64,000 nucleotides of DNA from the NCBI GenBank assembly GCA_905178155.1, contig CAJINV010000016.1:124001-188000 (forward strand), given 5' to 3'. Under the pieces are notes generated by a model, which searched no databases, was not told the DNA's origin, and was given only the letters and a program-made list of their open reading frames with translations. The translations under genes were made by a program, and so were the position numbers. The first letter of the stretch is position 1. Every line of letters starts with the position of its first letter. This DNA is from Amoebophrya sp. A120 (taxonomy: Eukaryota > Protista > Dinoflagellata). Of this stretch, positions 1-64,000 are shown one piece after another.

Positions 1-1460
1 TCAGCAGGCGCCGGAAGTCAAACAGCCCCTCGCAGTAGAGCGAGTCGGCGACGATCAAGTCGCAGTCCTGGCCCTGGAAAAGAAACTCCGCGATCCAGTG
101 GCCGAAGGCCTCCTCCCCGTAAATGTTGTCGAAACTCAGCCGCCGCTCCGCCAGCTTTTCCAGGATGTCTTGTTTCGCCTCGTGGCCCACGGGAATTGCT
201 TCGGAGTTGATGAACCGCTTCGGCGCAAGCCGCACGCCCGCCTGGTACAGCTTCTTCAGCACGCTCTTCGGCGGCGTGAAGTCCAGGGCCCGGTAGTCGA
301 GTTGCTCGTCGAGTATGGAGTTCTCAAATGTTACATTCTCAACTGTTGCATGAATTTGCAATGCATGAACGGCAAAAGCGAAAGGGGGACAATTGCGCCT
401 CTAGCATTACAAAATCCGCACAGATTTAAACGCTGTTTAGCCCTCCAGGAATTTGTCATGCGAAGTCGCTTCACCCGACCCTGTGGATGTTGATGTTGAT
501 TTTGCATGACAAATCGTGTGAGCAGTTGAGAATGTAACAGTTGAGAACGCCATATCGAACGCCAGGTCCTTGTGCCCCAGCGGGACCTGCAGCTTGGAGC
601 AGAAGGGGCTAGTTGCGTTCAAGGTGGAAAATTTCATGCGGTCGTTGAAGGTCAATGCGTCCACGTCTTCGGCAACGTAGAGGTTCTTGCCGCCAGTGTG
701 GTCCTCCCGAAGCACGAGTGTGCAGTAGTTGAAAGCGAAGGTTTATCCTGTGCAAAAGCAACATCTTCGCGGAGGTCGTAGTACAAATAAATTGCAATGA
801 TCCTGCAACAAGACAGATGTCTCTCGTATTAAAGGGAAATCAGTATCGTAGACGCCAGCGCCACTTTTCAGATTAGGAATAACAATAAAAACATTTTTCT
901 GTATGCAGTCGTTTCTATGTACTTACTACGAAGATAGCTGCGATGCTTCAACTTTTGCAATGCGTAAAACCACCTCGTACAGCAGGTACCCGTCCCGGTT
1001 CTTCTGGTTGGCCAGGTAAATCATCGCGTCGTATCAAATGCAAAAGTGTCTGGGTCTGGAATATTGCCGGGTTTGTCATGCATATTTTGCATGACCCAGG
1101 ATGTCTGCAATGCACGACCCAGCATCACAGATTTTTAGAGGGCCTTCTGCTGCCTACTCCGCATGACAAATGCCCTCCCCGCGTAGCACAAAATGACCTC
1201 CTCTTGCTGGTCATGCAATGCAGATTTTTCTAGAGTCTAAAGTTAGCGTCACAAGTTGCAACCTTCCAGACCCAGACATTTTTGTAGTTGATACGTCGTA
1301 AGCCTGAGACATCTCCGTCTTGGACGTGCTGAGAAACAGAATCCGGGTCGGTTCGATTTTTCGACTGTCCTTCCGGTCCGCCACATGAAAGGGCAGGGCG
1401 GCAAGGTCGTAGAAATCTGCGTCGGTGACGGTGGTCGGAGAATCGATGTGAGGGCCGTGC
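1..1460 (-). CDS. Hypothetical protein, partial; introner-interrupted and runs off the left edge
   Basis: Removing 1032-1293, 744-966 and 314-554 (each plus 5 nt) gives one open frame: ...KTEMSQAYD|AMIYLANQKNRDGYLLYEV|xFAFNYCTLVLRED...KDLAFD|EQLDYRALDFTPPKSVLKKLYQAG... The 5' end is unresolved and no family was recognised. Confidence 0.6.
314..554. mobile_element. Introner, family E (TATGG..TCTCAAA.GTTACA TIR)
   Basis: TAT...ATA ends; flanks TCGAG/TCGAA. Confidence 0.85.
744..966. mobile_element. Degenerate introner, family F
   Basis: Ends TATCCTGTGCAAAAG...CTTTTGCAATGCGTA. TSD eroded (AGGTT/AAACC), but removing element plus 5 nt keeps the frame. Confidence 0.6.
1032..1293. mobile_element. 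Introner, family A (TATCAAATGCAAAA.TGTCTGGGTCTGGAA TIR)
   Basis: About 30-bp TIR; TSD CGTCG. Confidence 0.9.
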
Positions 1461-1955
1461 TATAAGCGTGCACAACCACTCCTGATCTTGTTGTTTCCCC
1501 ACAACGATTTTTTTCTCATTTCTCATGCAAAACAACAAAGAATTGGGCTGTCAGCATCTGCGTACTTATTTCTATTGGTGGAGGCATCGTCCAGTTCTAC
1601 GCGACGCATGAAGCTGCTATGTAAGCGATACACGACTTCTGCGTTTGCCGCTGTTGCTGCTCATAGGTTTTTGAAATGAGAAAAAAGGAAAAATAAGTAT
1701 TGAAAAAGGTGGTAGTTGTGCCGTCTCATACTCCCGGGACCTTCTTGGGCTTTTGCTTTTTCTTGGCTTTGCTCAGCCTGTACTCGAAGGAATAATATGA
1801 GTGTGAAAAAGACTACTGAAGACTCTTTTACCGGATAATTTGGTGATGTAGTCAATGTCGTGCCTGACAAAATGCATCAAGATCTCGTCTGTGACAAGTT
1901 GTTTCAAGGGTTTGCTAGATGAACTTACTGGGCGGAAAAGGAAAACTGCACACCT

Positions 1956-4900
1956 TCATACTTCTTGCTCGCGCACGACCACATCACAAATCAGTCGGAG
2001 TCGTAGTTCTACTTTATTCTTAGAGGATAGAGCATCCTCGGAAGCCAGATCCTCGGCTCCCCTGCGCAAAGAGGCGGACCCGCGGCCACCCATCGACATG
2101 TTGGGCGCGAAGCTCGCGGCCCCCGGTGCAGCCATGGCCGCGCTCTCCGGGATGTCAAAGCTTTCCGGGGGCAGAAGCGGGATCACAGACTGCACCACCT
2201 CGTCGTCGTCGGTTGCAAAGCTGGCGGAAACCGGCCCGTCTTCCCGATCGCCAGACTTTATCAAGTGTAAAAATGTCTGGGTCTGAAAGAATGCAACTTG
2301 TCATGCTAAATCTGAAGCATGCAAAAATCTGTGTTGCATGATGGCCACAAGTCGTCAAGTTTTGACCAAGTCGGGAGGGAGCTTCTCATGCAGGATAGGC
2401 ATGAAGAGAGAGATCGCACAGGATCTGTCATGCTAGGCGCTGCATTCCAGACCTCATGGATCATGGAGAAGCTGCATGACAAATCGCGCACTCTTCCAGA
2501 CCCAGACACTTTTGCATTTGATAGACTTACTGCCCATGCCAAACATGGACATTAGTTTGTCCATGGTTATCCTATGTAAAAACGTCCCCACACGTTAGTC
2601 AAGATGGGGATTGGCTAGACAAATCCACAAGCTTTGGCTGTTTTGCATGACAAATTTGGACTCATAGTGTAGTGCTGTTTATTGAGGTAGTTCAGCAGCA
2701 TCAAAGATCTAGTATATGATCATTCGGATCGGAGCATAACAAATTCCAAAACACGACTAAAAGATCCTTCTCATGGGGATCCGCATGAGAAACATATTCC
2801 AGCATGCAGATTTGCATTTACAACTATACGGTGGGGACGTTTTTAAATACCATAATGGTACCCAGTTCCTCTTTGACTTCGCGCACGACCGCGCTGGGCA
2901 CCGTGGACACCGGCATCGTGCTGTACACCGGCATAGAGAGATATGCGGAGGGAGAATTCTTTTTCTACTGTACACGCTACGTTGTAGAAGTAGAGGCTGC
3001 AAAGAAATCAAGCATGCGCATGGCAAGACTGTCAACTTCAAGCTTAAACAAAAATGTAAAGTAAGCTGTCATGCTGGTACTTAAGCAAGACCTAGGCCTC
3101 TTGTCGTGCTGTCTTCCCCTGCTTGATTCTCTTTTCTACGTGCGGTACTGTAGAAAAATTAAAATTTTTTTTCCGTTGATAACTTCGGCGTCCTTGACTG
3201 GTAATCGCTCAAGAACTCGTGCACGGACACGCCCTGCGCGGCCCGATTCGGTTATGCATTGCAAATATGTCTGGATCCGGAAGACCGCAACTTGTCATGC
3301 TACATCTGGATCATGGAAAAATTTGTATTGCATGCTTACCAAAAGAGGTCCACTTTTGAGCAAATTCAAGGGCAGTTACTCATGCAAGAAAGGCATGATA
3401 GAGATCTCACAGAACCTGTCATGCTAGGCCGTGCAGGGCAGAGCGCGTGAGTCATGGAAAATCTGCATGACAAACCTAGCAATCTTCCAGACCCAGACAT
3501 TTTTGCATTTGATATCAGTCGCGCTTGTTCAAAATCGTCAAACGCCCCCGCTTCCAGGCCGAACATCGATTCATCGCCCGCCGCCATGGCGTTGGCCGTC
3601 CGGTAGCGGCTCGGTGCGTTATGAATGTGCACAACTCCCCCTCCCCCTCATTTGTATAGCAACATGAACGGCAATACAAGCATCAGCAAGAGTGCCGGTT
3701 TTTGCATGACAAATTTGCACTGGATTATAGTGCTATTCGGGCTACCACAGGAGCTTGTCATGCAAACAATGCCAAGAGGTAAAGGGTGAGTTGGGTATTT
3801 TGCATGACAATTGAGGAGGAGGGGGAGTTGTGCACTGTCATATGCGTTAGCGGGCCGGTACTTGCGCTTCGGCTCCATCCGGTGCAGCACCTGCATGAAG
3901 AACAGAAGAGTGCTATCCTGAGTAAAAACGCACCCACACTAGAGTCAGGATGGGGATTCTGCAACACAAACCTAGAAGCTTTGTAAGTCACGCATGACAA
4001 GTTGCGCTATGCAGTGTCGTGCAGGTTAGCAAGTGCAGCCGCGCCACAGATTCGTCTGCTCATCCTGTTCACAGCATCACAAATTCCAAAACACGATTGG
4101 AAATGGCTCTCATGGGGATGCGCATTACAAGTCTTCCAGTCTTTGCAAATCTGCATTACAACTCTGGTGTGGGTACGTTTTTACTCAGGATAAATGCCAA
4201 GAAACCCCACCACGCACACCAAAATCGTCAGCCCCACGTCGGTGGAGCAGCTGCATTTGTCCCAGTTGTTCCCCCCGTTTGGAAGCAAGTCCGCGACCCT
4301 GGTGGAAACGGAAGAGGTGACGAGGGGTGACGTGCCGTGGCGATAGGAAAAAGTCCTTTCTGGTTGCTCGTCATCTCTGGCAAAATTCTCGTCAGCGGGG
4401 GCAGAAGCAGCGGCGCGAGGATCATTTTGCGTTTGTTCTTGCGGATCACCATCATGATCTTGGTCGTCGCCGTGATCGAGAAGAACTCCGCCGTGGACCT
4501 CTTGTCCTGCGTGGGCGGCTTGCTGCTGCTGCAAGGCGATGTTTTCGTCGTCGTCGTTAGGTGCATTCGGTGCTCCTGCAGCTGAACCTCGTCTCCTCGG
4601 CTGCGGCTGCTGATTGCTGCGGACCTGCAGGAATTGTTTCGGGGAGGTGTTGAACTTCAGCTTGCGCGGACGGACGTATTGCTCGAAAAAGTTCGATGCC
4701 GTGTTTGCCGTGGTCTCCAGGAAATGCTGCACGGGCGATATTGCAGTGAAAAATGCCCCCACCCCCAAAGTTGCAAAAATTTGTGACGCGAAGTTTCCAA
4801 ATGGAAACTTTTTGTCATGCATGAAAGGAGTATGAATCTTTCTGATGCAGAGTCTAGGCGTGTATCGCAGCGATTACATGACAAGCGCCGCTCTTGCTGG

Positions 4901-5150
4901 GGTCTTTTGCACTACAAATTTTTGCTATTCACGATTCGAAACCTGCGATGCTGGTAGATGGAAGAGGGCGAGTGTTTCATTTGGAAAGGTTTGCAACACA
5001 AATCTCCCAAGTTCGGGGGTGGGGGCATTTTTCATTGTAGTAGGCGAGTGGTAGGCCGCGGAGCTTACGGAGGAGCCGGGCGTTGTGTGGGGGGAATGGG
5101 AATCAACGTCTGTAGTTGCTGCTGGGTGGGAGTTGTGCTGGTTTATTTCG
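1956..5150 (-). CDS. Single-pass membrane protein, paralog of 32571-33976; 6 introners
   Basis: Spliced: ...KCSCSTDVGLTILVCVVGFLG|xLLFFMQVLHRMEPKRKYRPANA|PSRYR...SDYQSRTP...MPVYSTMPVSTVPSAVVREVKEELGTM|DKLMSMFGMGSKS|GDRED... The junction at about 2965-3185 and both ends are uncertain. Confidence 0.6.
2259..2523. mobile_element. Introner, family A
   Basis: TIR; TSD GACTT. Confidence 0.9.
2568..2854. mobile_element. Introner, family B (TATC....GTAAAAACGTCCCCAC TIR)
   Basis: TIR; TSD ATGGT. Confidence 0.9.
3253..3514. mobile_element. Introner, family A
   Basis: TIR; flanks TCGGT/TCAGT. Confidence 0.85.
3620..3842. mobile_element. Introner, family C (TATGA..GTGCACAACTCCCCCTCC TIR)
   Basis: TIR; TSD TGCGT; inverted copy at 38424. 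Confidence 0.9.
3914..4192. mobile_element. Introner, family B
   Basis: TIR TATCCTGAGTAAAAACG; flanks AGTGC/AATGC. Confidence 0.85.
4739..5042. mobile_element. Introner, family D (TA.T.CA.TGAAAAATGCCCCCACCCCC TIR)
   Basis: TIR; TSD GGCGA; right end is GTA. Confidence 0.85.
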
Positions 5151-6750: not shown

Positions 6751-6839
6751 ACCATTTCTTTTGAAGAGCAACTGATTTGATGACAAATCGTGTCTCTACT
6801 AGACAAAACTGCGCTCCTTTCCCGAAGCAAGTGTGCCAA

Positions 6840-11200: not shown

Positions 11201-12129
11201 GCCATTATTTCCCACCACTACAGTCGATTCCATTTTCCATCTGCTGAAGATGTTTTTCCGATACCGACAGCCTAAGCACCGGGAGCCAGTTTTTACCTTT
11301 CGCGGCTTCGGTATGGGTGTGCCAGGATTGAAATCGACAAACGTGAAATAACTTGCAATGCATAAAATGGATTAAAGTTGTGACCCAGTTTCCAAGTGGC
11401 GCATGACATAAACAGACTGTGCTACTGCGGGCGAGACATTGCGTATCAGGTGAATTGATCAACCCGAAGACGCCGCCTCCCCGGGCCCTACGGACCTGGC
11501 ACTCCCAACTACAAATTTGGGTAGAACCGAAATCCAGGTTGCCATGGTGTTTGGGTAAGGGCGACGCCTTTTGTCATGCTACTTGAGCAGCTCAGTTTCT
11601 TTTTCTACCCCTCAACAGGCTTGCAATTTGCCTCACTTGCCTACTCTGGAACACAGGCACTTTCTTTGTGGGCTGCATTTTATGCATGGCAAACTATCAA
11701 CATCAACTCTGACAATTTCAATCCTGACTCTCCCATATTCGGTTTCCGAGTGCCCAGTCACTGATGTGGCTGAGAGTGAACGATGGACGAGGTGCGGCAC
11801 TCTTGGGTGATCCATACCCGCCCCGCCTTTGCCATAGAGTCCCTGGAAATTCCGAATGAACTTGTCTCTGTATGATTGTATTTTGCGAAGGTCCTCTATC
11901 GTGAGAAAAAAGCGTAATACGGTTACACACTCTGATAGGAGAGGACAAGTAAGACAGACCACCTCTGTCATGGAAGACCAGAAAATAATGCTTGCCAACC
12001 TCATTTCATGATGCGTGTTTTCCCTTATAGTCCTCTGCTCATCTACTTCACAGGTTTTCTTTGGCATGCCGAGCAAGAACTTTGTGATGCAGGAAGTCCA
12101 ACTACAAATGTGTAACTGTTACAGCACTT

Positions 12130-15100
12130 TTATCCTGTGATATCCTCTTCTGTGCGTTCGCGCTGAGGTTTCTTCTCCAACGAGCACACCAGACGGAACA
12201 GCATCGGCTGTTCTTCAAACCGCGTCTGCTGCATTTTGGGCTCTAACGTTTGCTCGATGTAAGTTTTTCCATTTTTCGGATTCGAAAACTCTGTGGCGGA
12301 GTTCCCAACGCTCCGACCTGTCAGATTCGTCCACCAGCGCGATTTCACATATCAAAAGGAAAAATCCCCCCTCCCCATATTGACGAGGCACGTTTTTGAA
12401 AATTTGCGTTGCTGATTTGTGATCACGAATCGTCTCTGTGTTGTATGAAGGCAACTCCACAGGCTCCGCCGCATTCTTTAGGCGGTTTGTCATGCTGTTG
12501 CACCTACAGCGTAGACGTCTATCATGCGAAGCGCCTAGGCCAAAACCTGTCTACTCAGGCTTGATATGGGCCTGCAGTCCTCGCCAGCAAGACAAATCTG
12601 ATTTGTGTACACAAATCCAGCATCAGAAACTTCGTTTTGATATGGGGCGGGGGCTTTTTTCACTTTGATATCACACTCACATTCACCACCTTCTGGTCTT
12701 GCGTTGAAAAGGCCTCGAGCAGCTTGTTGACGAAAGTTTGGCAATTATTTCCACCGGGTGCGAGGGCACTGTAGTTCGTGTGATCGAAGCCAATTGCATC
12801 GGCGACCTCGAGAGCGAGCTTCCTCACATCCTCCAGGGATGTAAATCCCTTCGCCTGTATCTCAAAATCCGGCATAGGCTCCTCTTCGGGATCTCGATTT
12901 TTGAGTGCGGGATCAGGATTCGAAGGTCCGGGCAGGTTGTGATCACGCAAGAACTTCGGCGTTCCGAGGCGAGTCTTTTCCAACAACTTAGTCGTGCTCT
13001 GCAACTTTATTTCTGCCAACTTCCTCCTTGCGATTGCCGCGCCTCTTTGTCTCAGGAGAGAAGCTTTTCTTGTTAGGCTTTGCAGCAGGCCCTGTTTACT
13101 TACACTTTCCAGTTTTTTCCCAATCTCTTCCTCCTCCTTCGTCGCTTCTTCAATCGTTTCTTCTAAGTCGAGTTTTTTTTTCCAGTTTTTCCCGAACAAA
13201 GACAGCACCTTGAAGCAAACAAGTGACTTCATGGGCGACGGAACTGGGTCCGGTATCCGCAGTGTCATCCCCCCCCAGTATGTGTAGTTTCTCGACAACA
13301 TCTTCGGAACACTTCCCCCGACGAGGTTAGTGTAGAGGGATTTATCATCTTCTTCGGTTTCCGGTTCGCCAGTTGCTAAGCCTGTTGCCACAAACCCGTC
13401 ATGATACATAGCTGCGAAAAAGCGGAAGTCGTCTTCCCAGAGTATTTCTGTTTCAGATGATTCAGAGTAAATTTCCGGGCCACCGCCCGCATTATATTCG
13501 ACTACGATATCTGCAGTTGCCCCCGGTAGTCGAAAAGTGACGAAGTAGTGCTCGATCGGTATCTGTATCAATGTGACAAAAATGCGCCCACTTTCGCACA
13601 TGCAAGTCACGCACTGACTCGCAACAGAGCTTCTGGATGCGAGGATAGTGCTCGTTTATCAAGAAACCTCATCTACTCTCAACTCCGTCTATTTACTTTC
13701 TGAGGCCCGAGCCCGAGCGCGACACTCCCACGAGCCACGGTGTTGCGGCCTGCCACTTTCTACAGTACTGTGTAAAGATAATGGCCCCTTTCGATGTGCA
13801 GCGTCCCGCCTCGCTTTGAAAGTGCGGGAAGATGGAACAAATAGCTCAGAGACAGAGAGGCGGTCGCATCTAATCTAAAAACAACCAGTCATCCTGCTCG
13901 CTCACTAAGATGGGAAAATAGACTTGAAACTCTCGAAATTGATTCCACGGCCCTGCCGGTACCACTATGACAAGAAAAAGCCGAAAGTCAGTGGTCTACG
14001 TCTACTAGGTCTATGCACGTAACATATCATCAGGTTGAGAACAGCAGACTGTCTACTGAAAACATTGCTTTGAATCATGGCGAAAGTGGGTGCTGTCGCC
14101 GATGAGCTTTCATCTTCGTAACTCCCGCAATGGAAGCCATGAGACAACGACGAATACGGATTTTCGTCGTGGTCATACCCATCGGTTGCACAGGGGCGGG
14201 CTGAGGTGATTCAGTAGAATTCCCCGCACCTCCCGGTGCATCAAGCTCCAGCAGGGGAATCACGTGACTCTCAAGGATTTTTTTCCTAAGTTCCAAATAC
14301 TGGAGCTGCTTTTCCTTGTTCTGGAAGCGGCGTTGCTCTGCGTTTTCCCTCATTCGACCATAAGCTTCTTTTGCGCGACCCAGTGCCTGCGCGGCGCGGC
14401 TAGTTGCCCATTGCATGGAGGAGCGCGGAAAAATGTCCAAAAGCGTGGTTGTGTTTGTGGTCTCCGACAAAGCTTTCTGGTCCGGAACACCGCCAGTGAC
14501 GTGCTTTTTCTCCTGCAGCACCACCTGCATAGGGATGAGAAGTTTATGTGTCTTAGTCTTTGTTCGTTGGTATCATGATGATCAGTCGTACAACTATCTT
14601 TCGTTCCTGAATAAAATTGAAGTTCTCCAATTGCACATGCTGCACTGGCAAATTAAGAACATTGGAAATACTTAAGTAAGTAGTGCCTACCGGTGAAGAT
14701 TTTGCCGCCGCGTCCTTGTTGCTGCTCGCCTCCGCAGCTGTTTCAGTTTTGACAGCCTGCGCTTTGTTCGCATTGTCCGCCATGCTCTCGTCCTCACCGA
14801 CTGAGCCAGAGACCAGCGGGTCCTCTAGTACTTGGCGGCCTTCTTGTTGTTTTTCTTGCTCGATGAAAGTGGAGCTCGCGGACGTCGTTCCAGACGCAGC
14901 ATCCTGCTCGCGAGAACCAATCACACCAGTCGCCTCCTCTTGATCAACGTCCTGCTCCCCGTCCTCCAGGCTCGTGGTTCCTGGCGAAACAAGCGCATCG
15001 GTAATATCAGAAAGGTTAAGGTCGGCGCTCGCGTTATGTTCGTCCGTGTTTTGGAGAACGGAGCCCGGCAGCGCCAGCGGCTCCGTCGTGCTGCCGCCGA

Positions 15101-15926: not shown

Positions 15927-16011
15927 GATTGATTCTTGATTTTTGATTGGGGAAAACAAAAAAAATTCAAGTTTTCAGCTTTTCAAGACTAAACCGAAAT
16001 GGGCGAGTCCC

Positions 16012-52022: not shown

Positions 52023-55000
52023 TTATTCCCGATCTTCATCATGCTCTGCCAGCATCTCCTGCAGATTTTCTCCGTACTGGTCCGCAATACAGGCTTATGC
52101 AAGAAAAAAACTGTGCAAGGGTAAGTTTCTTGGAGGAATAGCATCACAAGTTTGCTCTGCATGACACAGAAATAAACCTGTCATGCGTAGCTAGTACTTG
52201 AAAACACGTACGGAAAAATTAGCCTCTGATGCATGTCCAGCAGGACAAGTGTAACAGTTTTGCATTTTCTGCAACACAAAGTTCTTACACTATAGACAGT
52301 TTTTTCCTTGCATAAGGCTTGCATCTGGTCCGCGAGCATCTCGGCACTCCACCATGCGCCCTCGACGGTCGCACACCCGCTTGCCCAGTCACCGCAAATT
52401 CCCAGCTTGTGCTCCTTATCCAGCCAGCAGTAGTCTTGCTTCTCCGCCCTGTTTGAGAAGCGTGGTTTCCATATTTCAATAATTGCAACAGAAATTACTC
52501 TCTCAATTTTGTCAGACCCGAAGATCGAATTTTCTTATGCAGGCCCACCAGGTACGAACAAATACAAAGCTGCGACCGTCTCTGTCCCGCATGTTGACTG
52601 CAAAAAGTATAATAGGAAACTGTGTAGTAGTATCTAGCGCGGGCGGTCGCTCCGCGACCGCCGGAAAGGTATGGAGTAGGCAAGAAAACGATGGGCCCGA
52701 TTTCCTACTAGGAAGGTTGCAGTCCTCGCGGGGAAGGGGAGGGGATTCTCCTGGGGGCGAAAACTCTACAGGCGCAGGGCTTCTCCGTCCGCCTGAACCC
52801 CCCGGAGAAAGACAGTAGGCGTGACAGCGGCCCACCCCAGCTCCCAGGAGCAGGAGAAGTTCTGGGAAACAGAAACCCAGGGCCACCCCAAGCTGAGAGG
52901 GGGCCAGCCTTCGGGGATGTTCCCAATGAATTTGCGAACGCCTCCGAAAGCTGCGAGCCTTGCGTGCGGCTGCTCGTCATTCTAGTTACGCCTCCAAGGC
53001 GGCAGGGCTGCTTTTGACGGGGCCCAGAGGGGCGCAGCTGTGGAAACTGCGCGACAAAGAACCTGGCCAGCCAGGCAGGTGCAACCAGCACAATGGGACT
53101 GGGCGCGCTGTGTGGAATAACCATTTAGGGCACTGAGAAAAGGCGCTTTTTTCTACGTGCAGGGCGGCGGGTGCATCCACACCAAGAGGGGGCCGCCCCC
53201 GCGAGGCAAAATGTGGCCACCCAAACAAAGCGCAAACCCCCTACCGGCACCCTGGCGGGGCCGGAGCTAGTTCGCCTGAACCTGCGGGCGCACCAGCGCG
53301 TAGCGCGCCACCCTCAGTCAGACAAATAAGTCCTTTCCCTCCCACGGCTGCGCCCCCTTATCCAGCCAGCAGTAGTCTTGCTTCTCCGCCCTGTTTCAGA
53401 TGAAGCATTTCCATTTTCGCATGTTGATAATTGCAAAAGAAATTAGTCTGTTAGTTTTGTCAGTAGACCCGAAGATCGAGGAGTTTTCTCATGCAGGCCC
53501 AGGTAAGAACAAATACAACGCTGTGACCGTCTCTGTCACTCACGCATGTTGACTGCAAAAACCATAATAGGAAGCTGTGTAGCTGTACTAGTAGTATCTA
53601 GCACGGGCGGTCCCTCCGCGACCGCCGGAGAGGTATGGAGGAGACAAGGATGCGATAGGCCCGCTTTCCTACGAGGAAGGTTGCAGACGCGGGGAAGAGG
53701 AGGATATTCTGGGGGCGAAAACCCTAAGCCCCCCGGAGAAAGACAGTAGGCGTGACAGCGGCCCGCCCCAGCCCCCAGGAGCAGGAGAAGCTCCGGGGGA
53801 AAGAAAGAACACCCGGGGCCACACCAGCGTGGAAAGAGGCGAGGCTTCTGGACGGTTCCCAATAAATTTGCGAGCACCCCCCAGGCTGCGAGTCTTGCGG
53901 GCGGCTGCTCGTCATTCTAGTTACGCCTCCAAGGCGGCAGGGCTGCTTTTGACGGGGCCCATAGGGGCGCAGCTGTGGAAACTGCGTGCGCGACAAAGAA
54001 CCTGGCCAGCCAGGCACGTGCAGCCAGCACAATGGGACTGGGCGCGCTGTGTGGAATAACCATTTTTTTCGGGCACCGAGAAAAGGCGCCTTTTTCTTCG
54101 TGCAGGGCGGCGAGAGCATCCACACCAAGAGGGGGGGCCGCCCCCGCGAGGCAAAACGTGGCGACCGAAACAAAGCGCAGAGCCATCCCTGGCACCGTGG
54201 CGGGGCCGGAGCTAGTTCGCCTGCACTTGCGGGCGCAGCAGCGCGCGCCGCACCACCCTCGGTCAGATAAAGAAGCCAGCTTGTGCTCCTTATCCAGCCA
54301 GCAGTAGTCTTGCTTCTCCGCCCTATTGAAGAAGAATGAATGTATTCGTTTGCCTTTGCATGCGAATAATTGCAACAGAAATTAATCGTTTACGTTTTAG
54401 TTTTTTCAGACCTCCCGAAGATCGAGTTTATTTCTCATGCAGACCCAGGTAAGAACAAATACAAAGCGAAAGCTGCGTCTCGGTGCTGCATGACTGCTAA
54501 AATTATAATAGGAAACTGTGTAGTAAAGTACCCTCTATTCGCTCCTGCCTTGCCCGGTCTGCCGATAACCTGGGCATACCTATCCAATGCAAATATGTCT
54601 GGGTCTGGAAGATGGCGAGGTTTGTCATGCTTGGCAGGCAGGAGTAGAGAAAAAAAAAACTGTAATGGATGCTGCCCTATAGTGCCTCTTTGTCTTTTGC
54701 GTCACGCAAAAATGCAGTTTGTCATGCAGTTTATGCAAGACGGAGTCGCTCAGAAACTTGTCTTGCGTGGTTCCGAAATGGAGCTTGCCTATTATTCGCA
54801 CATTAGCATCACAAGTTTCCAGACCCAGACATATTTGCAATGCATAATACCGCCACGCGTGCAGATCCGTGTACTCCAGACGGCGCATGTCAAACATGTA
54901 CTTCCATATGGGGTTCTCAAACGTTACACTTTCAACTGCTACATGATTTGTGATGCAAAATTGCCATCAGCCACACCACGATCAAGCTACTTCGCACGAC

Positions 55001-58000
55001 AAAGGCTAAACAGCATCGAAATCTGTGCCGAATTTGTAATGCAAAAAGCGCAAGCTTGCTCCCTTCACTGTGTGTGTTCTTGCATCACAAATCCATGTAA
55101 CAGTTGAGAATGTAATGTTTGAGAGTCCCATATTCCAGAAGTCAATTTTCGGGCGTGCGTAGTCCTTGTTTTCGGGTATCGGTACGTTGTATCGACTGTA
55201 AAAATGTCTGGGTCTGGAAGATTTGAACTTGTCATGCTAAATCTAAATGATGCAAAAATCTGTGTTGCGTGACCGTGAGTGTCAAAGCTGTCCGCTTTTG
55301 ACCAAGTTGAGAGGGAGTTTCTCATGCAGGAAAGGCATGATACAGACCTCAAAGAATCTGTCATGCTGGGTCTCGCATTTTAGACCTCATGGGTCATGGA
55401 AAATATGCATGACAAACCTGGCAATCTTCCAGACCCAGATATTTTTACATTTGATACGTTGGCAGACAGGAGTAACTCTCGCGCTTCCTTCAGCATGGGC
55501 TTAATCACGTTCGCACCACGGTAGGTGTAGTCGTTACCGGCACCCATCTGCTCCTCCATAATGAAGTGCTGCTCGGACCACTCGAAAGAGGCGAAAACCT
55601 AGTGATTTTTTGTGATGCGGTTTTCGGATGAACAAGAACCCTGGAGCGATATATTAGCGAACTACGCATGACAAACAATTACCGGAACCAGCACTAAAAC
55701 AACAACTGCAAGATGAAAAAGTAAATACGCAGACTGAGATCGTCTTGAGGCCAATCCGGTTTCGCTTCGCAACGCGACCAGGCTTGTTGCTGTCAATGAT
55801 CACGCAGCGGACCACCGGGTGGGCGACGCAGTCAATCGTGCTAGGGATTTCGGTCTCGTTGAGGGAGGCGGGGATTGAAAAACCTGTGGATGGAAGTTTT
55901 TAGCTCGGAAAGAACAAAGTTTGTCAAAGTAGTTCGAGCAAAATAGAAGTAGAACACAACAAATCAGAAAAAAATAAAAATACACCCAAAAATTATCAAC
56001 TTTCTATACCTAGCATGAGCACGTAGCAGCCCCGCATTTTGCTTTTCGCTTGAATTCTCGGAAATTTTTTCATGATGGGCAGTTCTTCGACCAGTTGCAT
56101 GGTCTGGGGACCGGGGAGACTAACCACGACATAGTCGAAGGGTCGAGAAGAAACCGGGGCGTTGGCGGGATTGGTGACCGCGTTGTAGGGTAATCGAGCG
56201 TGTTTTACCTTCCGCAGATCCCACTGCAGGTTAACACCTGGAGTTGTTCGTGATTTATATTTTGCATCACAATTTCGTCCATGTTGACTTCGGATTGCGT
56301 ACTGGAGATGAGACGAAGATGAAGCACTTTATTTGCATCACAAACACATGGACATGACAATGCTCCGCTAGGACTAAAAATATGCGAAGAGGATGGTGTG
56401 TTCCTCTTCTTGTGGACCACACGACCATCTTCTTGCTATCCTTATATCATTCTGAAATACCTTGAAGCCGCTCCTGGTCCGGGTTATTTTCTTTTTTTCT
56501 CACTTCTCCCTTTCTCGGCGGCGGCGGCCTTCTTGCAGAGTCGATTTTTCTCATCGGGTCAATTTCCCCTCTGACACCTCCCCGCGCGCCGCCCTCCGTG
56601 TCCCCGTCCGTACCCCCAGCACCCCCTAACAGTTGCTGCAGCCGCTCCTGTATGAACTGCAAAAGTAACGTACTAGTATGAATAGCATCACAAATTCCCT
56701 CAGCATTAGAAATATAAATTTGTAATGCTGTTTTTTTTACCTTAGGAAGAAAATTTGTCATGCATTTTTGCAATTAGTACGAGTACGATGCTTTTGCGGT
56801 TCATATCCTGTTCCTTCCGCTCCCGTTCCCGGATCATCAAGGGCACCGCCGGATCGTCTATCAAATGCAAACTTGTTTGGGTCTGGAAGATTCTGAGACT
56901 TGTCGCGCACGTTTTGCATGAGCCATGATGTCTCTGATGCATGCCCTAGCATCACATATTTTTTGAGGGCTTCTTGATGCCTATTCCGCATGACAAATGC
57001 CCTCTCCGTGTAGCAAAAAATGCGTTCCCTTTGCTGCTCATGCAATACAGATTTTTTTGGAATCAAAATGCAGCATCACAAGTTGCATTCTTCCAGACCC
57101 AGACATTTTTGCATTTGATATCGTCTTCCTCCGGGCAATTTGGATCGTGCATGTCGCCAGTGGCGAACCGCGAGTAAAGCTGCGCTTCCTGGTTGGAGGG
57201 TAACGCGGAAGCTTCCACGAAACGCACATCTGGGTCAAAAGGGAACTTATTGTTGCCTTCATTCTCATGTTCAGCGTGGGGGGGTAACTGAGTAGATACA
57301 ACTTGATGTCCGGACTGTTTGGGGTGCGGTTTCAGGTGCAGCGTCGAAGGTGGTGCGGCTTTTGAAGGAGCAGTAGAAACAGTTCCACCCGGTGGGGTGA
57401 TTTCTCGCCGCAGGCTTGGATTGGGGTTGGTATCCTCACCTCCTAGTAGAGAAGGCATGTCGTCGAACAGTGGTCCTTCGCCGGTTGAAGAATTCACGTT
57501 CTTGCTCGTATCTACCCTCACCCGCGGGGAGGGCGAAGGGGTGTAGAGCTTGTCCAAGATGCTTTCCGACACCTGTCGGCTGGATGCGCTGATCGACAAG
57601 TTTTCCGACAAGACGCCGGAGGTCTGCTATGAACTGCAAAAGTATCGTACTAGTAGTAAAAATCGCAGTCATGCATTACAAATCTCGATCCCAAGGCAAA
57701 ACAGCATGACAAACTCCATTTCTCATGCTGAGGGAATTTGTCGTGCGATTTCTACTACTAGTACGATACCGTTGCAATGCATATCTGCCGCCCCGCGCCG
57801 ACGTTCCGCGCCACCTCGGACTCGTCATCCGGACTGGAACTGCCGTCTGGACCATGTGATGTCCTGGTGGGGTCTTGGGGCAACGGGGTGTATCATTTGT
57901 AAAAACGTCCCCACACCTCCAGAGCCAAGATGGGAAATCTGCTAGACAAATCACACAGCTTTGGTTCTTGTTTGGCATGACAAGCTTGTCCTCGTAGTGT

Positions 58001-61000
58001 AATCCTGAAGCATGACAGATCTAGCATATCATGCTGATTCTAGCATCAAAAATTCCAAAACACGAATAGAAAATGCTTCTCATAGGGCTCCGCATGAGAA
58101 ACTTTTTTGGCATGCAGAATTGCATGACAACTCTGGTGTAGGGACGTTTTTACTCAGGATAGGGTGCTGTTGGTGTTCTGCAATGAAGGCGTTGTGTAGG
58201 GAACCGGGGACTCGGTCAATTGGAGGTGCTGCTTCTTGACAAGAACGCTGAGATTTTGATTTCCTCCTGTTGTGTTATGATTCACCGGCGTCGTGTCTTT
58301 AGAAGACGACTGTCCACCTTCGAGAAGATGTAGTTGACCTGCTCTACTATTGGGTTTTGTCTTCACCGGAAACAGCTTCCCGATTCTGCATCCCAGCCGG
58401 ACGTCCAGCTTGTTCCGCTTCGCTACCATTTTGCCAAGTTCGGACATTTTCGGCCAACCAACGAAGACCCGATTGTCTTGCAACTCCCGTTATGCATTGC
58501 AAATATGTCTGGGTCTGAATCTGGAAACTTGTGATGCAAGGAAGGGAATAGTGAGCGCACTGTAATGTGCTCCCCAGCATGACAAGTTTTTCTGTGGTTC
58601 AGAGTTGCGTACTCCGCATGAGAAACTGCGTGTTTGCATGACAGACAAGAGGAGCCCTTCGCGGGCACGCAATACAGAGTTCAGAGTCATGCCAGACTCG
58701 CATGACAAATCTCGCAATCTCCCAAAACCAGACATATTTGCAGTGCATACCCGTTCCGAACCGGTTTGCCCGTACATTTGCTCGCGGCTGATTAAATCCT
58801 CGCCTTGCACCTCATCGCGGTTCTGGTGCGTCTTCAAATGATTGTTCCCCCGTGGGGAGGATTTCAGATGATTCTCCCGGGGGGAACTCACTTTTGCGGC
58901 AGCAGATGCTTTGTTGCGATCCTCGTCTTCGGCATTTTTGTTATCCCTCGAAGTCGTGCCTTGGCCTTGCCCCTCTTTACGATCATCGCCCCCGTTTCTT
59001 GGTGAGGATTTTTTCTCCACACCCGAGCAGAGGTCAACATCATTTTTGCTGGAAGTGGGAGTCGTGGCAAGCAGAGTTGTGCCGTTAGACATTTTTCCCC
59101 CAGGAGCTGCACCACTCGCGGCCGTTGACGTTTTCATTTCTGCTAACAGTTCCTCCTTTCGGTTGAACTCCTTTAGAGCGTACAACCCGCATTCTAACTC
59201 GTGGGTCGCGGCTATTTCGTCGGAGGTGCGCTCCTCTGGAATCATATTGTTGTTTTTCACTTATGCACTGCAAAAGTATTATATTATATCGCACTTGTAC
59301 TAATTGCAGTCGTGCATCATGACCAGCCTCTTCCTTACTGTATTAAATCCGCATTACAACTTCCATTCATGTAGCATCAAATTTGTGAAACGCGATTACA
59401 ACTGCTAGTACGAAGATATTACTTGTGCAATTCCAATTCATAGCACTTTTCCTTTATCGATTTTGCAATCCTCGTCCGCGGCCGAGGCCACGCGACTTCG
59501 CGCACAGGCAGGAGCACCCCCACTCTTGCGATCGATGTTGAGGAAGTCGACATCGTAGCACCAGCAGTCGTACAGAATGGGGTTCTATGGATTGCAAATA
59601 TGTCTGGGTCTGGAAGGTTGGAACTTGTAATGCTGGCTTTCCATACCTAGAAAATCTGTATTGCATAACCAACAAAAGTCGCAGCCTCTTTTGTACATGC
59701 AATTTCGCAGGCTCGCATGCAGATTGCCTATGAGAAAGCGTTCTGGAAAGTTGTCATGCTGGGTCGCATTCGGAACTGTTTCCATCATCCACGCTTTAGC
59801 ATCACAAGTCTCCAGACCCAGACATTTTTGCATTTGATAGGTTCTTCCCGTTGCGCCACTCCACAGCGCCGACCTCATCTCGCGGCGCCTCTTCCTCGAT
59901 CACCGACCGGAGCTTGGAGGCGGTGGATGCCCAATTGTAACCAGCCGCGTCTCTGTCCGATCCCGGGTTTTCCCCCTTGTCACTGCTCTGCCCCCCCTGG
60001 GAAGCCGAGGTGTTGCCGACATCGCTGGTTGTGCTGGATTCGCCGTCTTCGTCACCCGCAGGGCTGGACGCAGATTCGCGGTCCTTCAGCATCCGCTTCT
60101 ATCATTTGTAAAAACGTCCCCACCCCAGAGTCAGGCTGGGGACTCTGCAACACAAACCTTGAAGTTTCCGGAACCACGCATGACAATAATGTAGGCTGTA
60201 ATGTAGTGCAGTTTAGTAAACAAAGCCGCATAACAAATCCATCTCCTCATCCTGTTTGCAGCATTACAAGTTCCAAAAAACAATTGGAAATGCCTCTCAT
60301 GGGGATGCGCATTACAAGCGCTCGTGTGCTTGCGGATCTGCATGACAACTCTGAGGTGGGGATGTTTTTACACAGGATAGCTTCTTATTGTTGTTCTCTT
60401 TCTCTTTCTCCGCCACCTCCTGGGAGTGCGTCCTCGTGCGTTCTTTATTGTTCACACCCCACCTGGGTTCGTGATCCTTCGGCAACCCCCACCGTCCGGT
60501 CTGCAAGCCGACGTCCTTGAGTTCCGCGGATTTCTCCTTCCCTTGCGAACTGTTTCGCTCGAAGGCGACCGTCTGCATCCAATCTTGGGACTGATAATTA
60601 TTTATTTCGATTTTTAGATACTCGAGGCTTTAATAGCTTCCACTTCGTGCAAGAATTTAACTTTAAGAACCACGATGCTGACAATCAAAGGGCTTAACCA
60701 AGCAAATCAATGAAAATAAAAACGAGGAAGGAAGATATCAAATTGCTAAAACAAAATAAACCAGACGACTTAATGAACTATATACGATCTGTCTGTCAAA
60801 TCCCCCGGATGGAAATTTCCCCAGGCCGCACGTTCTCTGTAGCCAGGCGTGAAAGTGCGGGTGCTTCACGCGGAAAAACGGCGCGCCAAAGTCGAACTGG
60901 TACCCGGTGGGGTCCGGCGCGCGGGTGTGCCGCGTGACTAATCTGCCCCCGCACGCGTTCGCTTTTTCAAAGATGATCACGCTATCAAGTGCAAAAGTGT

Positions 61001-64000
61001 CTGGGTCTGGAAGGATGTAACTTGTGATGCGAAGTTCAGAACACACAAAAATCTCTGATGCATAGGCAGCAAAAGCTGCTCAACTTCTGTCACCAAAATG
61101 AGGGATTTGTCATGCGGATTCAGCATTGCGGAAGCTTGTCGAAACCTGTGATGCTAGAGCTTCCATGCCAGACCTTCTGTGTCATGCCGAAACAGCATGA
61201 CTCTTCCAGACCCAGACATTTTTACATTTCATACACGCTGATCCGGGGCATTTTGATCGCGGTTTTCCGCTGGTTCTTGTTGACCGCAAAGGGGTTATCA
61301 AGAGCAAAAGTGTCTGGGTCTGGAGGAGTGTAGACTTGTCATGCAGATTTTCCATGGCCCATGAGGTCTGGAATGCGGGACTTAGCATGACAGACTCTGC
61401 GAGGTCCCTACCATCAACATCATGCCTATTCTGCATGATAAACTCCGTTCCAACTTGGTCAGAAGTGGACAGCTTTCGGCACTCAGGCAACACAGATTTT
61501 TGCATGCTTCAGATTTACCATGACAAGTTGCAATCTTCCAGACCCAGACATAATTTTTGCAATTCATAGGGGTTCTCGTTTTCGATCAGCATCCGCGACA
61601 TGCTCTTCAATCTCTCCGCAACATATCCACTGCAAAAGTATCGTACTCGTATGAATTGCAGGTATGCATGACAAATCTGATTTCCTACCTGAATCTGCAT
61701 TACAAGTTCCAATTTTCTTCTTGAAAAAATTTGTCATGCGATTTATGCTAGTACGATATTACTTTTGCAATGCATACAACATGCAGCCCGCTGATACCCG
61801 CACCCAAGACGGCGACCCGGATCTCGTTGGATTTCTCGCTCGTGTCCTGGACCTTCATCGAGGCTGAGGAGGTCGCGTTTGCGATTGTTATTTCGTTACC
61901 GCGATTGCCCCGACGAAGATCGTCCCCGGGGGTGGTTTATCCTGTGCAAAAGTATCGCGCTCGTATTGCAATCATGCATTACATATCCCTTTCTCAAGCT
62001 AAATCTGCATTACAAATTTTATTTCTCATGCTGCAGAAATAATTTGTATTGCATTTATACGAATGCGATACTTTTGCAATGCATATGGTTCTACTAGTTG
62101 TAGTACCAGCAGCAGCTCCAGCTCCTTGATCAGGAAGATTATCCTCCGTCGCGTGGATGCCTTCCACGAAGAAAGACCTGTCGCTCCTCATGTGGGGATA
62201 ATTTTCCACCGCTGCATATGGCGTTCTCAAACGTTACACTCTCAACTGTTACACGAAGTTGTGATGCAAAAACAGCAATAGGGAAAGGGGCAAGGTTGTA
62301 ACTCTTGCGTCACAAATTTGGCACAGATTTAGATGCTGTCCAGCCCTTCGATAATTTGTCACGCGAAGCAGCTTGATCGTCTGGCCGCTCATGTTCTTTT
62401 TGCATGGCAAATCATGTAACAGTTGAGAATTTGTAACGTTTGAGAATGCCATACTGCAGCCTCCGCTGCGCACGATGTTGAAAACGCAGATTCCCAACAC
62501 AGGTAAGAATCGTGCGGCCGCGTGTGACTGCTGTCACGGCCGAAAGTAGAGGAACAGTTGCTGGTAGCCTGCGAGTGATTGCTCGACACACTGCTTTTGC
62601 GGGACCGCGGAATGTCATTTTTGAAAAACCTGTCTCCGCTAGTTTCTTGTGCAATTGTCTGCTGGGAAGTTCTTGTGAAAGAACCTCCAGCAGGACCTCC
62701 AATTCGTCTGTCTCTGTGGCCGCTGTTGACGCTGTCGCCGGATTGTGATCTATTGCTCCTCCGGCGGGCGGGGGGAGCTCCAGCTCCAGCTGATGCAGTA
62801 GAACTACCTTTATTAGAGCAGGTACTGTAGTTCCCTGGTGTGCAGGGCGGCGCCCCTGAGCTCATTGGCGTCGATCTGTCGGTGGAGAAACTGCCGAGAT
62901 GTCGCAAAGGCAGCGGCGGGGGGGGAGGCGGTGGGGGTGGAGTCGGGGGCGCATGGTTTACTACTTCTCGAGTTCCAGGTTCTAGGCCGCCACCAGGCAA
63001 TTCTAGTTGTCGTCCTGGGAGCTTTGGAGGTCCTCGACTGTGGTAATCTCCCTTGCCATCTGTAGCTTTTGATTTCCCCGAAGAAGAAGTAGAGGCAGGT
63101 GCGGCTTCCACTTGCAGCTGCGCTTTGTCGAAAGAACTAGTATATCCTGTGTAAAAGTATCGTACTCGTAGTAATCGCAGTCATGCATCACAAATTGCTT
63201 TCTCAAGTGAAATCCGCATGACAAATTTTATTTCTCATGCTGAGGAAATTTGTCATGCGATTTATACTAGTACGATGCTTTTGCATTTCATATAGTAGCG
63301 AAGCTTTGTGCATCTTGCGCAACTACCGGCGTCCGTTCGCCCATGGAGAGGGACGACGTCGAAGATTTCCGCATCGCCTTTTTCCCCCCTTTCTGACAAG
63401 AAGAAGAATCTTGTTTACCGTGCCCTCCTTTATTAACCAACACACTCTGCATCTTATGCATTGCAAAAGTATCGTACTCGTAGTATTGCAATACAAATTA
63501 GCTCAGCATGACAAATGGAATTTCTCATGCTGAAATAGCTTGAAAAAGAAATTTGTGTTGCATGACTGCGATTAGTACGAGTACGATACTTTTGCACAGG
63601 ATACATCTGCTGCTGTTGCAATAATTGCAAGTCTCGCTGTTCCTGTTCCTGTTGCTGGTAATACCAGGTCACGCAGGAATTTTGATTGCTCTCGTGGTTG
63701 TTGTAGTGGCCGATTTGCTGTTGTTGGTGCGAAAGATGTTGGTCGTAACTATCGGACTTGGACCGCCAATTCCAATTTTTGCTGCCTGTGCCTATCTATC
63801 AAATGCAAAAGTGTCAGTCTGGCTCTGGAACAGTCATGCTGCTTTTGCATGACACACAAGGCCTTCGAGAAGCTTCCGCAATGCCGAATGTGCATGACAA
63901 ATGTCCCATTCTGGTGACAGAAAGCGGCCAGCTTTTGCTGCCTGTGCATGAGAGATTTTTATGGGTTGTCAAATGCGCATCACAAGTTTGCATTCTTCCA
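52023..64000 (-). CDS. Renalase-like FAD/NAD(P)-dependent oxidoreductase with a long low-complexity N-terminal extension; 20 introners plus several GT-AG introns; 5' end probably beyond the window
   Basis: Spliced motifs in order: VAVLGAGISGL, IFEKANACGGRLVTR, FDFGAPFF, VFVGWPKMSELGK, FDYVVVSLPGPQ, CYVLMLGF, DSNKPGR, EWSEQH, HAWRYAQ, LGICGDW...VEGAWWSA; stop at 52023. Continuity above about 62.1 kb was not fully checked. Confidence 0.85.
52096..52314. mobile_element. Introner, family H (TATGCAAG.AAAAAACTGT TIR)
   Basis: TSD AGGCT. Confidence 0.85.
52402..54525. repeat. Tandem repeat of an approximately 935-bp unit, about 2.3 copies
   Basis: CTTATCCAGCCAGCAGTAGTCTTGCTTCTCCGCCCT at 52415, 53357 and 54289. 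Confidence 0.9.
54581..54846. mobile_element. Introner, family A
   Basis: TSD ATACC. Confidence 0.9.
54907..55132. mobile_element. Introner, family E
   Basis: TSD TTCCA. Confidence 0.9.
55190..55456. mobile_element. Introner, family A
   Basis: TSD CGTTG. Confidence 0.9.
56651..56805. mobile_element. Introner, family F
   Basis: TSD TCCTG. Confidence 0.9.
56859..57120. mobile_element. Introner, family A
   Basis: TSD TCGTC. Confidence 0.9.
57628..57783. mobile_element. Introner, family F
   Basis: TSD TCTGC. Confidence 0.9.
57891..58161. mobile_element. Introner, family B
   Basis: TSD GGGTG. Confidence 0.9.
58491..58749. mobile_element. Introner, family A
   Basis: TSD CCCGT. Confidence 0.9.
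59262..59442. mobile_element. Degenerate introner, family F
   Basis: Flanks TCACT/GCACT; eroded TIR. Confidence 0.7.
59586..59839. mobile_element. Introner, family A
   Basis: TSD GGTTC. Confidence 0.9.
60100..60379. mobile_element. Introner, family B
   Basis: TSD GCTTC. Confidence 0.9.
60983..61233. mobile_element. Introner, family A
   Basis: TSD CACGC. Confidence 0.9.
61296..61568. mobile_element. Introner, family A
   Basis: TSD GGGGT. Confidence 0.9.
61624..61776. mobile_element. Introner, family F
   Basis: TSD CAACA; removal gives GISGLHV|AERLKS. Confidence 0.9.
61938..62085. mobile_element. Introner, family F
   Basis: TSD TGGTT. Confidence 0.9.
62217..62453. mobile_element. Introner, family E
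   Basis: TSD CTGCA. Confidence 0.9.
63143..63292. mobile_element. Introner, family F
   Basis: TSD TAGTA. Confidence 0.9.
63455..63603. mobile_element. Introner, family F (opposite orientation)
   Basis: TSD CATCT. Confidence 0.9.
63797..64000. mobile_element. Introner, family A, truncated by the window edge
   Basis: Left TIR TATCAAATGCAAAAGTGTC; interior matches the 35308 copy. Confidence 0.8.

What the first reader, a model, noticed from the sequence alone, without database searches (positions are those of the whole stretch)
314..64000. Shared GCAT(G/C/T)ACAA motif across otherwise unrelated introner families
Seen: families with different TIRs and lengths all carry several copies of GCATGACAA, GCATCACAA or GCATTACAA and their reverse complements. 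Inference: this is a binding site for a common trans-acting factor, either a transposase or a splicing protein. TAT..ATA ends with a 5-bp TSD do not match the DDE superfamily signatures I know (Transib CAC, Ginger TGT, hAT 8 bp, Tc1 TA), so the mobilising enzyme may be unclassified. No autonomous partner is visible in this window.
Basis: partly seen in the sequence, partly recalled or inferred. Interest (0 to 1): 0.7.

Follow-up and report, generated by a model that had tools for sequence, protein, structure and literature searches.

The report
Shared DNA motif in parasite introners
Unrelated families of intron-making jumping elements, in what is likely the marine parasite Amoebophrya, all carry the same short motif in both orientations, often as pairs three DNA turns apart; it is likely the docking site of the still unidentified protein that moves them, and it gives a bait for catching that protein.

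Summary
Observation confirmed. All 42 TAT..ATA elements (5-bp target duplication) carry GCAT[G/C/T]ACAA: 89 hits in 10.1 kb inside against 7 in 53.9 kb outside. 330 of 352 more elements from a metagenome assembly carry it too. With the motif and 15-bp ends masked, the ten largest family clusters share no interior similarity. The elements match the published Amoebophrya A120 introners. RNA-type contigs drop each element plus one duplication copy. The motif shows no strand bias against transcription (370:412), recurs as direct pairs 31-33 bp apart in 15 of 19 families, and is conserved. It therefore behaves as a double-stranded DNA site, not an RNA splicing-factor site. Best reading: subterminal binding sites for one shared transposition complex. 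The enzyme guess is not new: IS3EU/GingerRoot have TA..TA ends, and Gozashti 2025 lists an A120 introner as 'Ginger, 5-bp TSD, TA/TA termini'. No autonomous element was found. Not found in my searches: the motif, its spacing, a 1-nt/4-nt splice register, and intact motifs in 16 of 94 predicted GT-AG introns without inverted ends (about 30-fold over intergenic DNA). That last point keeps a host intron-marking role open.

The parts
314..554 (.). introner, family D (cluster 5), TAT..ATA, duplication with 1 mismatch
744..966 (.). decayed family-B-like introner, ends kept, no exact motif
   Evidence: removal in the 1/4 register is one of the ORF-restoring solutions
1032..1293 (.). introner, family A (cluster 0)
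1461..1730 (.). decayed introner, no exact motif
1796..2029 (.). decayed introner, no exact motif
2259..2523 (.). introner, family A, opposite orientation to 1032
2568..2854 (.). introner, family C (cluster 3)
2942..3181 (.). decayed introner, no exact motif
3253..3514 (.). introner, family A
3620..3842 (.). introner, family E (cluster 4)
3914..4192 (.). introner, family C; direct motif copies at 48, 79, 161, 209, 240
4739..5041 (.). introner with a damaged right end
11312..11737 (.). introner, 426 bp
11897..12142 (.). introner (cluster 2)
12350..12670 (.). introner (cluster 6)
15265..15616 (.). introner (cluster 7)
33025..33183 (.). introner, family B (about 150 bp)
33249..33516 (.). introner, family A
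35308..35847 (.). introner, family A, with an inner insertion of about 300 bp
38424..38639 (.). introner, family E
38693..38847 (.). introner, family F
43263..43412 (.). introner, family B, in photolyase gene
43466..43621 (.). introner, family B, in photolyase gene
44416..44677 (.). introner, family A; its duplication mismatch agrees with the splice register
45893..46146 (.). introner (cluster 8), skipped with one duplication copy in RNA-type contigs
46578..46730 (.). introner, family F; RNA-type contigs skip exactly 46574-46731, which fixes the register (1 nt before TAT, 4 nt after ATA in transcript sense)
52096..52314 (.). introner (cluster 2)
54581..54846 (.). introner, family A2 (cluster 0)
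54907..55132 (.). introner, family D
55190..55456 (.). introner, family A
55599..55728 (-). GT-AG intron without recognisable inverted ends, two exact motif copies (55610, 55666), inside a single-copy contig
56238..56460 (-). GT-AG intron without recognisable inverted ends, two exact motif copies (56264, 56335), inside a single-copy contig
56651..56805 (.). introner, family B, reverse orientation
56859..57120 (.). introner, family A; motif copies in one orientation only at up to 1 mismatch
57628..57783 (.). introner, family B, removed in RNA-type contig (length check)
57891..58161 (.). introner, family C, removed in RNA-type contig (length check)
58491..58749 (.). introner, family A2, removed in RNA-type contig (length check)
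59262..59442 (.). introner, B-like; its duplication mismatch agrees with the register
59586..59839 (.). introner, family A2
60100..60379 (.). introner, family C; six direct copies at 48, 79, 129, 162, 210, 241, none reversed
60983..61233 (.). introner, family A; copies in the reverse orientation only
61296..61568 (.). introner, family A
61624..61776 (.). introner, family B
61938..62085 (.). introner, family B
62217..62453 (.). introner, family D
63143..63292 (.). introner, family B
63455..63603 (.). introner, family B, reverse orientation
63797..64000 (.). introner, family A, cut by the window end

Best explanation
The motif GCAT[G/C/T]ACAA(A/G)T is shared by otherwise unrelated non-autonomous TAT..ATA introner families and is likely a double-stranded-DNA binding site for one common transposition complex, probably an integrase-related (IS3EU/GingerRoot/Ginger-like) transposase or its DNA-bending partner. 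Shown: elements sit in coding sequence in either orientation, flanked by a 5-bp duplication with no base preference. They carry about four motif copies, the outermost mostly 36-38 or 45-47 bp from the end, often as direct pairs 31-32 bp apart. RNA-type contigs lose the element plus five bases. Inferred: the protein loads on the repeated sites, positions the catalytic domain on TAT(C/G)..A-run ends and makes a 5-bp staggered insertion. Families that keep the sites keep spreading, which is why unrelated interiors share them. Splicing is then likely read from the paired ends (cut 1 nt before TAT and 4 nt after ATA), not from the motif.
For: Enrichment 67-fold in the window; in metagenome loci 9.1/kb in called elements against 0.14/kb outside elements and their homologues, with 330 of 352 elements positive. 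With the motif and 15 terminal bases masked, only 1 of 45 pairs among the ten largest clusters gave a BLAST hit, and it lay in the inverted end. Strand symmetry: 370 sense against 412 antisense in 366 of 393 elements with an assigned strand, p=0.14; 22 have sense-only and 28 antisense-only copies. One-orientation elements 60100 and 60983 lie in a group whose removal fits the RNA-type contig length. Direct pairs 31-33 bp apart occur in 15 of 19 families with any direct pair; the 31-32 share is 0.21 against 0.05 in jitter nulls (0 of 2000); the 10.5-bp phase score is 0.33 and the 11-bp score -0.02. Changes shared between copies: 0.85/100 at motif columns against 4.46/100 elsewhere. Four decayed TAT introns in the window and 8 predicted ones (one overlapping a window case) have no exact copy. 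TA..TA ends fit IS3EU/GingerRoot. A120 family 38 has an integrase-like ORF, TA/TA ends and a 5-bp duplication. Repeated subterminal transposase sites are a known design.
Against: No transposase or autonomous element was found: none in 47 window frames or 102 locus frames, none among long TAT..ATA pairs. Farhat 2021 reports no transposase in A120. Whether family 38 carries this motif could not be checked. Motif direction relative to the end differs between families (outward in A and D, inward in B and F, all one way in C), which is loose for a transpososome. Beyond the 31-32 bp pair, helical phasing is only borderline (0.16, p=0.05; 12 of 18 families positive). Private changes at motif sites are about half those elsewhere (2.35 against 4.16/100). 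In the unbiased ranking they do not rise with the duplication-mismatch clock (2.1, 2.8, 1.8% against 0.9, 3.1, 3.7%; 12-17 events per class), which could mean selection after insertion. Intact motifs occur in 16 of 94 GT-AG introns without inverted ends.
Confidence: 0.55

Rival explanations
1. The motif is the site of a host (or domesticated transposase-derived) double-stranded DNA-binding protein that marks introns on the chromosome and recruits or paces the splicing machinery during transcription, in a cell where U1 snRNA was not found. Elements keep it because marked insertions are spliced and tolerated.
For: 20 exact copies in 18.5 kb of unique predicted GT-AG introns (1.08/kb) against 3 in 101 kb of intergenic/UTR DNA; letter-permuted motifs average 0.5. 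Exact to one-mismatch-excess ratio is 21:23, as in young elements; neutral decay of 20% predicts an exact share of 0.26 (p=0.001). Two such introns lie in one single-copy contig of depth 42. Motif private changes do not track the duplication clock. U1 and a transposase were not detected in A120.
Against: 78 of 94 such introns have no exact copy; 22 of 352 elements have none; old TAT introns have none. 13 of 16 motif-bearing GT-AG introns begin GTAT against 27 of 78 others (p=0.0008, but not significant with a PWM cut-off, 10 of 19 against 30 of 75), which fits relics of G+TAT introners. At 10% decay the freshness test is borderline (p=0.05). Elements with a duplication mismatch show more motif changes (3.5 against 2.4%). 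The introns are model predictions, and four motif-bearing ones were moved into the unique set by hand.
Confidence: 0.3
2. The motif is an RNA signal: a binding site for a splicing protein, or complementary copies that zip the pre-mRNA into a hairpin.
For: The elements are removed from RNA-type contigs. In predicted folds, 36 of 87 exact sites pair with another exact site and the TAT/ATA ends pair in 34 of 41 elements.
Against: No strand bias, and 50 of 366 elements have one orientation only. Family C copies are all direct, so they cannot pair with each other. Spacing fits 10.5 bp and not 11.
Confidence: 0.08
3. The motif has no function: it is a relic of common ancestry or of sequence exchange between families.
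For: Terminal 14-mers are shared between families, so families exchange or share ends.
Against: No interior similarity remains after masking. Motif columns change five times less between subfamilies, while the free middle base changes like other sites (4.86/100). The same 31-33 bp spacing recurs in 15 of 19 families.
Confidence: 0.05

Closest known systems
Amoebophrya sp. A120 introner elements (Farhat et al. 2021, PMC7789003)
   Same: Inverted ends starting TAT, seven variable bases, then three or more A; 3-5 nt direct repeats (5 bp in Fig. S19 legend); non-canonical introns of about 240 nt; no transposase inside; some canonical introns share the layout.
   Different: The text I could read describes no shared internal motif or spacing, and says the border position is unknown. 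Here the register is 1 nt before TAT and 4 nt after ATA (exact in one case, consistent in two).
Amoebophrya A120 introner family 38 (Gozashti et al. 2025, PMC12130899, text and dataset file 8)
   Same: [quoted passage not shown]
   Different: No motif analysis; the motif string is absent from the 12 of 14 supplements searched.
IS3EU / GingerRoot (PMC10045372, PMC6839031, PMC12730594)
   Same: TA..TA (TAY..RTA) ends; integrase-related DDE transposase; no target-sequence preference.
   Different: Usually a 6-bp duplication and, in GingerRoot, 100-150 bp inverted repeats; here strictly 5 bp, short imperfect repeats, and use as introns.
IS481EU (PMC10045372)
   Same: TNT..AYA ends, inverted repeats under 50 bp, non-autonomous families.
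   Different: Duplications of about 4, 15 or 25 bp; reported from parabasalids only.
Subterminal transposase-binding repeats (piggyBac/piggyBat, Tol2, Tag1, Ac; PMC11707139 passages)
   Same: Arrays of short repeated sites inside the ends that aid end pairing.
   Different: Here one motif is shared by many unrelated families, fills the whole element and appears in ordinary introns.
Euglenid non-conventional introns and Fritillaria MITE-derived introns (review PMC11282704)
   Same: Transposon-derived, non-GT-AG introns whose ends are brought together by inverted repeats.
   Different: Different end motifs; no internal repeated DNA motif described in the passage seen.

Membership tests
Amoebophrya A120-type introner | Inverted ends TAT + 7 variable + 3 or more A | tested here: met
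   82 ends: T81 A81 T82 at positions 1-3; A 67-74 of 82 at positions 11-13
Amoebophrya A120-type introner | 3-5 nt direct repeat at the exon/intron border | tested here: met
   5 bp
Amoebophrya A120-type introner | Removed from mRNA with non-canonical borders | tested here: met
   RNA-type contigs (RNA status is the tool's guess) skip element + 5 nt; ORFs restored; no GT/AG bias in 365 flanks
Amoebophrya A120-type introner | Repeated in families, no transposase inside | tested here: met
   28 clusters among 393 elements; no Pfam transposase in the two frames tested from the longest element; other long elements hold only short frames, not scanned
IS3EU/GingerRoot | TA..TA termini | tested here: met
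IS3EU/GingerRoot | Usually a 6-bp target duplication | tested here: not met
   TAT ends appear at k=5 (29 of 46) and not at k=6
IS3EU/GingerRoot | Integrase-related DDE transposase in an autonomous copy | not testable with these tools
   No genome held; no autonomous element in the window or 146 loci
Ginger2/TDD | 4-5 bp duplication | tested here: met
   5 bp; definition
Ginger2/TDD | TG..CA termini | tested here: not met
   ends are TAT..ATA; definition
IS481EU | TNT..AYA termini | tested here: met
IS481EU | Duplication of about 4, 15 or 25 bp | tested here: inconclusive
   5 bp here; one IS481EU-7 copy has 5 bp; lengths above 9 not searched
Subterminal transposase-binding repeat | Repeated, strand-symmetric, conserved, fixed spacing | tested here: met
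   wider helical phasing only borderline
Subterminal transposase-binding repeat | Bound by the transposase and needed for transposition | not testable with these tools
   needs the protein and an assay

The most novel reading that the evidence does not exclude
One DNA-binding protein, from or borrowed by an unclassified integrase-like transposase with TAT ends and a 5-bp duplication, both drives the spread of hundreds of unrelated introner families and marks introns on double-stranded DNA. It would help a spliceosome with no detected U1 cut at a fixed 1-nt/4-nt offset from the paired ends, and would stay under selection after introners turn into ordinary GT-AG introns.
Probability: 0.2. Interest if true: 0.88.

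Novelty: new variant of a known kind. Interest (0 to 1): 0.56.

Why it matters
A120 carries about 30,000 introners, yet no transposase and no U1 snRNA were found (Farhat 2021), so how they move and how they are spliced are open questions. A shared, conserved, spaced DNA motif points to one common factor. It gives a bait for pull-down and a filter for finding the autonomous element. The fixed splice register gives an exact rule for gene annotation and reporter tests. If the motif is also kept in ordinary introns for a host purpose, it would link transposon end recognition to intron definition.

Tried and rejected
No whole genome is held, and the metagenome contigs cannot be searched as records, so a genome-wide hunt for the autonomous element was not possible. 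Three end patterns found nothing in viral contigs. Long TAT..ATA candidates were ordinary elements with inserts (L005, L048, L047, window 35308), chance pairings of separate elements, or a 1,104-bp element with a repeat-rich interior and no Pfam match (L017). The Pfam scan covered 102 of 359 locus frames of 180 aa or more (mostly the longest on the host strand) and found no transposase. The idea that the inverted end is itself a motif copy got weak support only (column correlation 0.47 at offset 4) and is not used. The first tercile test suggested clean neutrality after insertion, but it ranked on the sites it measured; the unbiased repeat is ambiguous, so that claim was dropped. General 10.5-bp phasing shrank to borderline once the 31-32 bp pair was set aside. 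Selection for GT/AG in the duplication: none seen. No read-level view of the borders of the GT-AG introns at 55.6-56.5 kb or of the decayed introns was obtained; they rest on ORF restoration, a gene model and one contig-length check. 2026 raw RNA run X10 covered only one element fragment and was not used. Earlier-findings look-ups gave nothing relevant. One search compared two parts of the photolyase and was uninformative. Recalled and untested: the reverse motif with flanks, TTGT-N-ATGC-(A/T), resembles the animal Sox-Oct composite site, and GCAUG is the RBFOX word; neither is used as evidence.


Full report
What is there. An unbiased search for short direct repeats around inverted ends shows TAT ends only with a 5-bp repeat. 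Curation gives 41 whole elements of 148-540 bp and one cut by the window end. They interrupt genes that all read on the minus strand. Removing each element plus five bases restores long frames, for example a 1,279-codon photolyase frame across five elements and frames of 551 and 774 codons in the last gene. Contigs of two runs that the tool guesses to be RNA skip 45888-46146 and 46574-46731. Between 57622 and 58750 they hold 426 bases, exactly what is left after three elements and their duplications are removed. Two larger stretches fit as well once GT-AG introns are allowed (195 nt; 223+126+130+2,083 nt). Where the two duplication copies differ, the contigs show which is kept. At 46578 the cut is exact: 1 nt before TAT and 4 nt after ATA in transcript sense. 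The cases at 44416 and 59262 agree. This rests on three cases. The end signature, repeat and family lengths match the published Amoebophrya A120 introners, so the organism is inferred, not given.

The motif is real. All 42 elements carry GCAT[G/C/T]ACAA; 89 of 96 window hits fall in 16% of the sequence; shuffles give 0.8. The fuller form is GCATBACAA(A/G)T, about four copies per element at up to one mismatch. They yielded 352 more elements, 330 with an exact copy. Density is 9.1/kb in called elements, 7.8/kb in homologous fragments and 0.14/kb elsewhere. This set is biased towards family A, and no locus overlaps the window outside elements. With the motif and 15 terminal bases masked, the ten largest clusters share no interior similarity; cluster 1 is a chained, mixed group. 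So the families are unrelated except for the motif and the shared TAT(C/G)..A-run ends.

DNA or RNA. Host strand could be assigned for 366 of 393 elements. The motif reads sense 370 times and antisense 412 times (p=0.14); 22 elements have only sense and 28 only antisense copies. Subfamilies insert in both orientations. Direct pairs peak at 31-32 bp, three turns of B-DNA. Such a pair (31-33 bp) occurs in 15 of 19 families with any direct pair, and the family-weighted phase score peaks at 10.5 bp and vanishes at 11. Without that pair the phasing is borderline (p=0.05). The outermost outward-pointing site lies mostly 36-38 or 45-47 bp from the end. In 19 subfamilies (158 copies), motif columns show 0.85 shared changes per 100 against 4.46 elsewhere, while the free middle base behaves like other sites. 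These points favour a protein that reads double-stranded DNA. Against a purely DNA view: 36 of 87 exact sites pair with another site in predicted RNA folds, as expected when copies are inverted.

Mobility or host function. This is not settled. Private changes at motif sites run near 2%, about half the rate at other sites and close to the duplication mismatch rate of about 2.5% (195 elements with three or more close relatives). That is compatible with neutral decay after insertion. But the rate does not rise with element age in the unbiased ranking, while it is higher in the 24 elements with a mismatched duplication. Four decayed TAT introns in the first gene can be removed in the same register to restore the frame (the first of 36 ORF-restoring combinations) and have no exact motif. 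Neither do 8 predicted unique TAT introns. So non-canonical splicing likely does not need the motif. On the other side, a gene model that recovered the window's five contig-checked GT-AG donors predicted 163 GT-AG introns. Of these, 119 were unique and lacked inverted ends (114 plus 5 reclassified by hand), and 94 passed filters for length and AT content (25 dropped). Sixteen of 94 carry the motif, 20 copies, 1.08/kb against 0.03/kb in intergenic/UTR DNA. The copies look fresh. Thirteen of the 16 begin GTAT, which suggests converted G+TAT introners, though this is not significant with a PWM cut-off. Several clear elements can be read as G-TAT..ATA-G, a GT-AG intron three bases shorter than the non-canonical one, which offers a frame-neutral route to conversion (predicted only).

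The enzyme. None was found, and no genome is held. IS3EU/GingerRoot have TA..TA with usually 6 bp, IS481EU has TNT..AYA with 4, 15 or 25 bp, and Ginger2 has 4-5 bp but TG..CA. These elements work like that integrase-related group but fail a defining feature of the first and last, so they are not filed as members. Gozashti 2025 already notes an A120 introner with an integrase-like ORF, '5-bp TSD, TA/TA Termini', as Ginger-like and of unknown mechanism.

Literature seen. PMC7789003: abstract, passages, section 16, supplement text searches; figures (S19, S25 logos) are not held and might show the motif. PMC10045372, PMC12730594, PMC6839031, PMC12005148, PMC11282704, PMC11707139 and bioRxiv 2020.10.14.339549: passages only. 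The motif strings gave one unrelated paper and no hit in the two supplements. Searches listed no paper whose title or abstract start points to it. Subscription papers are not covered.

Verdict. The elements are known and the enzyme gap is published. The shared spaced motif, the splice register and the motif's presence in ordinary introns appear undescribed. Most likely it is a transposition site on DNA (0.55); a host intron mark is the main rival (0.3). Novelty: new variant of a known kind. Interest 0.56.

Noticed in passing
window 46574-46731, 59257-59262, 44678-44682: Mismatched duplications fix the splice register: the intron starts 1 nt before TAT and ends 4 nt after ATA in transcript sense, with no preference in those bases. 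The published work leaves the border unknown.
   Followed up: partly
L043 103-275, L050 1803-1958 and others: Elements readable as G-TAT..ATA-G, a GT-AG intron exactly 3 nt shorter than the non-canonical cut; a possible frame-neutral path from non-canonical to canonical intron.
   Followed up: partly
window 52340-54570: About 1-kb tandem duplications of a 3' splice site and exon fragment inside a 2,083-nt intron; the RNA-type contig length fits use of the most distal acceptor.
   Followed up: partly
window 12660-31260: Tandem array of related intron-poor genes (shared motif such as 'WDRLFGKG'), one with a weak PPPDE peptidase match (22746-23681); almost free of introners, unlike its neighbours.
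   Followed up: no
window 42600-47436 (-): 1,279-codon photolyase/cryptochrome-family frame split by five introners.
   Followed up: partly
window 35308-35847; L005 13473-14727; L048 3862-4492; L047 571-1051: Family A elements carrying 220-1,000 bp inserts of other sequence (L005 and L048 look related); introners act as landing sites for other elements.
   Followed up: no
L017 505-1608: 1,104-bp TAT..ATA element with a perfect duplication, 28/30 inverted ends, motif copies at the left end only and a GC-rich repeat interior; no Pfam match in two frames tested.
   Followed up: partly
window 5650-6800 and 16000-16800; 6900-10500; 40700-42200: A duplicated non-coding stretch and two GC-rich regions without Pfam matches, possibly other repeats.
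   Followed up: no
all elements, bases 4-10 of each end: The same terminal 14-mers recur in different families and differ between the two ends of one element; private change rate there is higher (5%) than at bases 16-30 (2.7%), suggesting end exchange.
   Followed up: partly
motif with flanks: Reverse form (A)A(T/C)TTGTNATGC(A/T) resembles the animal Sox-Oct composite site (recalled, untested); may hint at an HMG-box-type DNA-bending partner.
   Followed up: no
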